Part shown: positions 18,406 through 19,645 of the stretch, piece after piece
Layout: each line of letters opens with the position of its first letter
Numbering within the stretch: the first letter of the stretch is position 1
Origin: Octopus vulgaris
Lineage: Eukaryota
Direction of reading: 5' to 3'
NCBI GenBank assembly: GCA_951406725.2
Contig: OX597817.1
Span: forward strand, 137,764,001 to 137,828,000
DNA: 64,000 nucleotides
Position numbers and translations under genes: made by a program
The notes under the pieces: generated by a model
Databases searched by the model: none
Seen by the model: only the letters and a program-made list of their open reading frames with translations
Told to the model about the DNA's origin: nothing

Positions 18406-19645
18406 TATATATGAAAAAAGGTTTGAAAATGCAATTTAAACGATGTTTATTTACTTAACCGGTTTCACTCTTTGGTAAAAGATTGTCAAAAGTAACATTG
18501 AATATTATGGGTTCAAAAAAAGTTTTTTACATAATTGTCACATTGAATATTATGAATTCAAAAATGTTTTTTTATACATAATTGTCACATTACATGTATA
18601 AATATAGTATAAAAAAGTTCAATAGTGTGATGAGAATATTTGGAAAATTGGCAGAAAAGAATAAAACAAATATATTATTGGAAATTTGGTTGCGTTAATT
18701 ATTGGTTGTCGCAAATTGTCACATTACATGTATATATATACAGTCTTTGGTAGAAAGGACATGTTAAAGACATAAGGAAGTGTAATAGTTTGGTGAGAAA
18801 GCTTGTAATATTGACAGAGAAAATTAAAATGGATATTTTAGACATCTCAGAATATTTTGAATCGAAGGCGAGAATTTGTTTTTTACTGACCTGTTTGTTT
18901 TAGCAGAAAAGTTGAATTGAGAGAAAAAAAGATATGTACCCAGTTTGGTTTATACTTCCTCTTCAAGCATCAGTGATTTTGGGGTTATTGGGAGGTGAGT
19001 ATGCGGGTGTGAATAGATGTGTCCGTGTGCCTGCTGGTCAGACAGCGTCTGTTTGTCACACACATACATACACACACACTGATGCTTGAAGGGGAAGTAT
19101 AAACCAAACTGGGTACATATCTTTTTTTCTCTCAATTCAACTTTTCTGCTAAAACAAACAGGTCAGTAAAAAACAAATTCTCGCCTTCGATTCAAAATAT
19201 TCTGAGATGTCTAAAATATCCATTTTAATTTTCTCTGTCAATATTACAAGCTTTCTCACCAAACTATTACACTTCCTTATGTCTTTAACATGTCCTTTCT
19301 ACCAAAGACTGTATATATATACATGTAATGTGACAATTTGCGACAACCAATAATTAACGCAACCAAATTTCCAATAATATATTTGTTTTATTCTTTTCTG
19401 CCAATTTTTCCAAATATTCTCATCACACTATTGAACTTTTTTATACTATATTTATACATGTAATGTGACAATTATGTATAAAAAAACATTTTTGAATTCA
19501 TAATATTCAATGTGACAATTATGTAAAAAACTTTTTTGAACCCATAATATTCAATGTTACTTTTGACAATCTTTTACCAAAGAGTGAAACCGGTTAAGTA
19601 AATAAACATCGTTTAAATTGCATTTTCAAACCTTTTTTCATATAT
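18406..19645. mobile_element. near-perfect ~570-bp inverted repeat between (TA)n tracts, Penelope pLTR-like
   Basis: 18406-18975 is the reverse complement of 19077-19645 (only about 2 differences noticed), ~100-bp spacer; HHR-like motif in each arm. Confidence 0.85.
19557..19601 (+). ncRNA. type I hammerhead motif, U3-A8 variant (mirror copy 18451-18495 minus)
   Basis: ttactt-TTGACAA-tcttt..aaagagt-GAAA-ccgg-TT-aagtaa: perfect 6-bp stem I, palindromic ACCGGT stem III. Confidence 0.6.

What the first reader, a model, noticed from the sequence alone, without database searches (positions are those of the whole stretch)
18406..19645. Young ~570-bp perfect palindrome whose hammerhead has a compensatory U3-A8 core
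Seen: the arms are nearly identical, and each carries ttactt-UUGACAA-stem II-GAAA-ccgg-UU-aagtaa. Known: C3 and G8 form a tertiary Watson-Crick pair in the active HHR. Inference: changing both to U3-A8 preserves that pair, suggesting selection for activity rather than decay, and standard CUGANGA searches would miss it. The extra ~40 bp on the left only (18368-18405) fits an inverted-pLTR Penelope insertion. A transcript would form ~570 bp of dsRNA, a potential ADAR or siRNA substrate.
Basis: partly seen in the sequence, partly recalled or inferred. Interest (0 to 1): 0.72.

Follow-up and report, generated by a model that had tools for sequence, protein, structure and literature searches.

The report
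Head-to-head Penelope retrotransposon stub
This palindrome is two back-to-back copies of the tail end of a young, very common Penelope-type jumping gene, each with a predicted self-cutting RNA motif whose unusual U3-A8 core is the family norm and already known from other animals, so it is an ordinary insertion that likely records two linked copying events on one cut DNA site.

Summary
The palindrome is real: two 570-nt arms differ by 1 substitution and 2 one-base indels. It is a 5'-truncated, head-to-head insertion of a young Neptune/Nematis-type Penelope-like element (PLE) in a (TA)n tract. Full-length copies encode RT and GIY-YIG endonuclease. U3-A8 is not local decay: 100 of 100 listed family motifs (1,426 matches) carry it. 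Among CCGG-loop hammerhead motifs genome-wide, U3-A8 numbers 9,041 against 402 C3-G8. U3-A8 cores, opposite-strand hammerhead pairs, inverted pLTRs and a one-sided tail are all published for PLEs. Added here: 39 of 39 head-to-head pairs carry the tail on exactly one arm, and both arm ends fall on UA tracts about 42 nt apart. This likely reflects coupled priming from both cut strands. The scan noted the same pattern before on other families in this genome. Ribozyme activity is unproven: 0 of 26 copies with the ORF start begin at the cut site, and a read-through hairpin would bury the motif. Transcription and editing of this locus were not shown. Verdict: new member of a known kind, modest interest.

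The parts
18329..18368 (.). (TA)n target tract, left flank
18368..18405 (-). 38-nt PLE 'tail', left arm only; the stretch between the element's two internal TA tracts
18406..18975 (-). left arm: 3' end (pLTR) of the element, sense on the minus strand
18451..18495 (-). predicted type I hammerhead: U3-A8 core, U10.1-U11.1 at the base of stem II, palindromic CCGG loop III, GUU cut triplet
18976..19078 (-). spacer = further 5' element sequence of the longer left arm; junction with 2-nt microhomology (CA, 19077-19078)
19077..19646 (+). right arm: shorter, tailless 3' end of the element
19557..19601 (+). predicted type I hammerhead, second copy (U3 19563, A8 19568, predicted cut after 19595)
19641..19728 (.). 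(TA)n target tract, right flank

Best explanation
The palindrome is two 5'-truncated copies of the 3' end of a young Neptune/Nematis-type Penelope-like retrotransposon, joined head to head in a (TA)n tract, and it likely arose when the element's enzyme cut both target strands and primed two linked cDNAs at two UA tracts about 42 nt apart in the element RNA. One cDNA would start at the downstream tract (tailed arm) and the other at the upstream tract (tailless arm). Both would stop early and be joined through a few matching bases (inferred). The hammerhead is the normal pLTR ribozyme of this family. Its U3-A8 core is inherited and likely kept by selection at family level. It is predicted to be a slow, dimer- or protein-dependent ribozyme that usually leaves the template uncut. 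In this copy a read-through RNA would bury it in the long hairpin. Shown: identity, architecture and counts. Inferred: twin priming, selection and slow cleavage.
For: Identity: 41 matches at 99-100% from 40 of 1,053 candidates scored. Longer copies carry RVT_1 plus GLKF, DKG, YLDD, a CGRPNCKTC linker and YVIRCEGCHEDYIGQT. Full-length copies read pLTR-tail-ORF1-ORF2-pLTR, with direct hammerheads 5,830 nt apart. Architecture: 39 of 39 head-to-head pairs have the tail on exactly one arm. 18 were chosen as best matches, including this locus, and 21 as every such pair among the first 100 listed matches. The tailless arm is the longer one in 10 of 39, which copying back from a first cDNA cannot give. 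Of 31 junctions with a good reference match, 21 overlap by 0-4 nt; 8 of 39 were set aside. Arm ends sit on two TA tracts in the element. Arms of one locus differ by a median of 0 substitutions against 5 between loci, in 32 pairs with 7 short ones dropped. Core counts (reversed controls in brackets): U3-A8 9,041 (99), C3-G8 402 (43), C3-A8 276 (54), U3-G8 214 (47). Stem I was not part of the search patterns, yet it covaries at 6 of 6 pairs with 93% of cells paired over 15 motifs. One stem I/II background occurs with both C3-G8 and U3-A8 (L054 and L142). The Anolis PLE protein cuts and extends both strands from two internal start sites and is predicted to be a dimer (PMC11167929).
Against: No biochemical test was done. 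This locus alone (tailed arm longer) also fits cDNA fold-back. Motif counts are copies, not independent events. The 3-8 result (15 of 15 paired) is circular, because rows came from U3-A8 and C3-G8 searches. A mismatched C3-A8 retrozyme variant was amplified, including a 3-copy tandem, so pairing is not absolute. The monomer does not fold as a hammerhead by minimum free energy (z about 0). The catalytic dimer fold (-12.9 kcal/mol) is less stable than the best dimer (-20.7). One pair (L035) has arms with different loop II variants. In PAc the start site was reported as not homologous to the cut DNA. No long read spans this locus. The clade was not tested by a tree.
Confidence: 0.75

Rival explanations
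1. Fold-back copying: one cDNA primed at the tail site folds back on itself and is copied toward its own start, then jumps to the other target strand at the internal TA tract. The published variant is self-priming on an antisense template.
For: It gives head-to-head geometry and near-identical arms. The tailed arm is longer in 29 of 39 pairs (p=0.003). Self-priming was proposed for Adineta PLEs (PMC3846280 passages).
Against: In 10 of 39 pairs the tailed arm is the shorter one (for example L036, L118, L122), so its tail cannot come from the longer arm. No pair has two tailless arms (0 of 39). L035 has different variants in its two arms.
Confidence: 0.15
3. The motif is a decayed, inactive relic carried along by an active element.
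For: It has three weakening features together (U3-A8, U-U at the base of stem II, GUU triplet). The main subfamily has only a 4-bp stem I, and the fold energies are unfavourable.
Against: Core bases are invariant while stems change compensatorily across families. Mismatched 3/8 states are only about 2-3% of the U3-A8 count.
Confidence: 0.2
4. The palindrome is a fold-back assembly artefact.
For: No contig of the 4 runs laid spans the stretch or its junction.
Against: The arms differ in length, in the tail, and at 3 positions. 38 other loci show the same build with different junctions.
Confidence: 0.03

Closest known systems
EN+ Penelope-like elements of the Neptune/Nematis type (PMC8557442: Introduction and passages read)
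   Same: RT with C-terminal GIY-YIG, CX2-5CxxC linker, CCHH motif, pLTRs, inverted 5'-truncated copy, tail at one end, (TA)n targets. The Fig. 1 legend allows an ORF1 split off by a frameshift, without naming the clade in the text held.
   Different: A new family. No tree was run to separate Neptune from Nematis. The strict one-tail rule (39 of 39) is stated there only as 'often'.
Schistosoma mansoni PLE minimal hammerheads (PMC4209133, parts 1-2 of 4 read)
   Same: U3-A8 core variant (about 1,300 hits), dual motifs 100-700 bp apart on opposite strands, palindromic loop III, predicted dimer action.
   Different: Here the loop III is CCGG and stem II opens with U-U rather than the conserved G10.1-C11.1. 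Among CCGG-loop motifs, U3-A8 outnumbers C3-G8 about 22 to 1.
PAc, Poseidon of Anolis carolinensis (PMC11167929, parts 1-2 of 4 read)
   Same: Two internal RT start sites bounding the tail, both target strands cut and extended, AT-rich target, uncut RNA as the main template.
   Different: PAc has one ORF that starts inside the hammerhead and starts in an AC-rich stem-loop not homologous to the target. Here both ends fall on UA tracts that match (TA)n, and the ORF starts about 120 nt after the cut site.
Adineta vaga Pen2a-type insertions (PMC3846280 passages)
   Same: Inverted pLTRs, tail on one of them, microhomology junctions.
   Different: Those have 8-10 bp target duplications in some copies. 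None can be read here because of the (TA)n flanks.
Non-LTR retrozymes (bioRxiv 2026.07.22.740005, part 1 of 5 read)
   Same: Type I hammerhead; related CCGG-loop motifs occur in tandem ~360-bp repeats of this genome.
   Different: This family has coding full-length members and is not a short tandem non-coding unit.

Membership tests
EN+ Penelope-like element | PLE-type RT (GxKF, DKG, YLDD motifs) | tested here: met
   RVT_1 E about 1e-7; motifs; seen in family copies, not in the window stub
EN+ Penelope-like element | C-terminal GIY-YIG with CCHH motif | tested here: met
   YVIRCEGCHEDYIGQT followed by two His. Pfam GIY-YIG did not score on the query itself, but PF01541 is listed on many homologues
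EN+ Penelope-like element | pLTRs, direct and inverted, with a 30-40 nt tail | tested here: met
Neptune/Nematis clades | CX2-5CxxC linker between RT and EN | tested here: met
   CGRPNCKTC
Neptune clade | (TA)n target preference | tested here: met
   TA runs follow the arm ends in the pairs printed
Neptune clade | RT phylogeny with named references | not tested
   no named reference sequences were obtained from the tools
Type I hammerhead ribozyme | Core U4 G5 A6 A9, G12 A13 A14, A15.1-U16.1, H17 | tested here: met
Type I hammerhead ribozyme | Watson-Crick 3-8 pair | tested here: met
   U3-A8 in 100 of 100 listed family matches
Type I hammerhead ribozyme | Stems I and II with covariation | tested here: met
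   stem I 6 of 6 pairs covary; stem II 78% of cells paired
Type I hammerhead ribozyme | Paired 10.1-11.1 (usually G-C) | tested here: not met
   U-U in this clade. A natural U-U variant is described in PMC3088659, so this makes it a variant rather than excluding it
Type I hammerhead ribozyme | Self-cleavage | not testable with these tools
   only a weak genomic hint, p 0.04-0.07
Non-LTR retrozyme | Non-coding short tandem unit with no coding parent in the same family | tested here: not met
   full-length coding copies exist
ADAR/siRNA substrate | Locus transcribed, with editing or small RNAs | tested here: inconclusive
   only contigs of runs guessed to be RNA were available

The most novel reading that the evidence does not exclude
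A dimeric Neptune-type RT-endonuclease always primes both cut (TA)n strands as a coupled pair, by base-pairing to two UA tracts 42 nt apart in its RNA. This would explain the one-sided tail, the inverted arms and microsatellite targeting at once. The family also makes its RT by a -1 ribosomal frameshift at a U UUU UUA site and carries a working U3-A8/U-U hammerhead, the dominant CCGG-loop hammerhead type in this genome.
Probability: 0.4. Interest if true: 0.55.

Novelty: new member of a known kind. Interest (0 to 1): 0.33.

Why it matters
The locus itself is ordinary. Its family is useful as a natural data set. A few hundred head-to-head pairs are expected (42 of the first 100 listed motifs lie in such pairs; extrapolated), and they constrain how PLE inverted repeats and tails form, which PMC8557442 names as unresolved. 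A young family with open reading frames suits an in vitro test. Practically, CUGANGA-only searches would miss most CCGG-loop hammerhead motifs in this genome. If such hairpins lie in transcribed introns they would be editing substrates, but that was not shown.

Tried and rejected
Rfam scan of 16000-22000: no hammerhead among 71 matches, mostly microsatellite-driven miRNA hits. Sequencing runs: no RNA holder listed. Contigs of runs guessed to be RNA cover family sequence but not the unique flank, and show no clear splice joint; uninformative for expression or editing. ORF scan: no recognisable host exon among 145 ORFs judged by eye, so intronic position is unknown. No stable hairpin follows the slippery site (z 0.0-1.4); pseudoknots were not tested. 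ORF1 has no Pfam family above cut-off. A cut-site test on the related GUC family was uninformative: 1 hit against 8 control hits, because the pattern fixed a variable T-run. The first alignment had one mis-cut row and was redone. The stem II register UCUUU/AAAGA with a GU bulge was rejected because it fails in relatives L147, L150 and L107. T6/T7 homopolymer state did not track tail presence. Lunse et al. 2017 on dimeric PLE hammerheads is not held; I saw only its reference line. No supplements were read, and those of PMC4209133 may already show similar motifs. A search of earlier findings by this sequence returned nothing.

Full report
Observation. The window holds two inverted arms, 18406-18975 and 19077-19646, that differ by one substitution and two one-base indels. 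The 101-nt spacer matches element sequence next to the arm in other copies, so the left copy is simply longer. It also carries a 38-nt tail at 18368-18405. (TA)n tracts flank both sides. Rfam does not detect it.

Identity. A search of the own genome (2.8 Gb) gave 41 matches at 99-100% identity from 40 of 1,053 candidates scored, and a family motif pattern gave 1,426 matches against 0 for the control. [quoted passage not shown] Full-length copies read pLTR, tail, ORF1 (447 aa), ORF2, a long microsatellite-like 3' region and a second pLTR, with direct hammerheads 5,830 nt apart. These are the features of Neptune/Nematis PLEs in PMC8557442 (Introduction and passages). No tree was run. The nearest named homologue is an Octopus bimaculoides protein (83% over 55% of the query), so the host is likely an octopus (inference).

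The U3-A8 core. All 100 listed family matches have U3 and A8, so this is the family state and not local decay. Genome-wide counts for motifs ending in GAAACCGGT, with reversed controls in brackets, are U3-A8 9,041 (99), C3-G8 402 (43), C3-A8 276 (54) and U3-G8 214 (47). The control-corrected odds ratio is 87, but copies are not independent. Many listed mismatched hits look like single decays of the U3-A8 families (judged by eye). One C3-A8 retrozyme variant was amplified, which counts against strict pairing. Over 15 motifs picked from several families, stem I covaries at 6 of 6 pairs with 93% of cells paired. Stem I was not in the search patterns, whereas the 15 of 15 paired 3-8 result is circular. 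One stem background occurs with both C3-G8 and U3-A8. In this clade stem II most likely opens with U10.1-U11.1 then C-G.

All of this has precedent. PMC4209133 (parts 1-2 of 4) reports about 1,300 U3-A8 hammerheads in Schistosoma PLEs, dual motifs on opposite strands 100-700 bp apart, palindromic loop III and low activity. PMC3088659 (passages) reports natural U3-A8 covariation, earlier in vitro activity, and a natural U-U at 10.1-11.1.

Is it active? Not shown. The monomer does not fold as a hammerhead by minimum free energy, and the catalytic dimer is about 8 kcal/mol above the best dimer. Of 30 loci fetched for the ORF1 region, 26 include the ORF start: 25 run 26 nt or more upstream of the cut site, 1 begins in the tail, and 0 begin at the cut. 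The templates were therefore uncut, as reported for PAc (PMC11167929, parts 1-2 of 4). Genome-wide, 16 hits lacked the normal bases just before the cut site. By hand, 11 arms at 10 loci were true truncations, 4 were mutated motifs and 1 an internal duplication. Two control positions gave 2 of 11 hits and 5 of 13 hits (4 loci) as truncations, p 0.04-0.07. This is a weak hint of occasional cleavage. In this palindrome, a read-through RNA folds into one hairpin (-955 kcal/mol) that pairs every motif base examined with the other arm, so the ribozyme would be trapped.

How the palindrome forms. I scored 39 head-to-head pairs: this locus, 17 from the best matches, and all 21 such pairs among the first 100 listed matches. 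Three fetched best-match loci with no partner arm (L043, L046, L048) and one tail-to-tail pair (L132) were left out. All 39 have the tail on exactly one arm. The tailed arm is longer in 29 and shorter in 10. Lengths are approximate for 8 divergent loci. Of 31 well-matched junctions, 21 overlap by 0-4 nt, and this locus overlaps by CA. In full-length copies, the two arm ends map to two TA tracts about 42 nt apart, starting 45 nt after the cut site. Arms of one locus are usually of one subfamily (median 0 against 5 substitutions, 32 pairs), with one discordant pair. Independent choice of start site would give at least half the pairs two tails or none. Fold-back copying cannot give a short tailed arm beside a long tailless one. 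Coupled priming from both cut strands, one at each tract, fits all 39 (inference). It agrees with PAc extending both strands from two starts. The one-sided tail is described qualitatively in PMC3846280 (passages) and PMC8557442. I did not find the strict count or the UA-tract match in the listings of searches, but most listed papers and all supplements were unread. I wrote this reading before consulting earlier scan notes, which report the same pattern for other families in this genome. Those notes are unchecked and are not support.

dsRNA. No holder was on record as RNA, contigs were uninformative, and no host exon was recognised in the window. The ADAR/siRNA idea stays untested.

Other papers seen: PMC6765202 and PMC5408684 (passages), and bioRxiv 2026.07.22.740005 (part 1 of 5). 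Recalled and not from a call: that GUU is a slow cut triplet, and that U UUU UUA is a known -1 slippery heptamer.

Verdict. A real but ordinary truncated PLE insertion, and a new member of a known kind. Its family offers a clean footprint for testing coupled two-site priming. Interest 0.33.

Noticed in passing
L133, L134, L136, L139 (full-length copies); L050:4841-4900: ORF1 (447 aa) and ORF2 (RT-EN) overlap in the -1 frame at T TTT TTA. 21 of 32 distinct copies keep the -1 relation, 10 have a one-base deletion and 1 is fused in frame (duplicates removed by hand). ORF2's ATG also overlaps ORF1's stop (ATGGTAG), so frameshifting or re-initiation are both possible. The 120 best homologues listed are at most 803 aa although up to 1,327 aa was searched, which suggests a conserved split.
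   Followed up: partly
window 18884-19000 (+), mirrored in the right arm: Splice-like signals on the antisense strand of the pLTR: TACTGAC at 18884, TTTTAG ending near 18903, and AG/GTGAGT near 18994. A possible antisense exon of about 90 nt; no spliced joint was seen.
   Followed up: partly
window 17772-18200: A second, older AT-rich palindrome with arms of about 210 nt at roughly 85% identity, just left of the insertion; MITE-like, not identified.
   Followed up: no
window 35827-37929 (-): Broken non-LTR retrotransposon RT in three frames (recognised by eye).
   Followed up: no
L082 type versus window type: Two pLTR subfamilies share the ORF1 stretch tested but differ by a 12-nt indel that gives a 4-bp or a 6-bp stem I.
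   Followed up: partly
G000:C4:80857199-80857948: Tandem ~360-bp retrozyme-like repeat with an unpaired C3-A8 core, with further dispersed copies.
   Followed up: no
L068-L078: A C3-G8 family has A-A at the base of stem II, a second non-paired 10.1-11.1 type.
   Followed up: no
L156/L157 (G000:C6:7734909-7735480): Both arms of one pair switch to the same unrelated sequence at the predicted cut site; possibly a ligation or template-switch chimera.
   Followed up: no
L132, L153: Tail-to-tail arrangement of two tailless arms around a short TA run.
   Followed up: no
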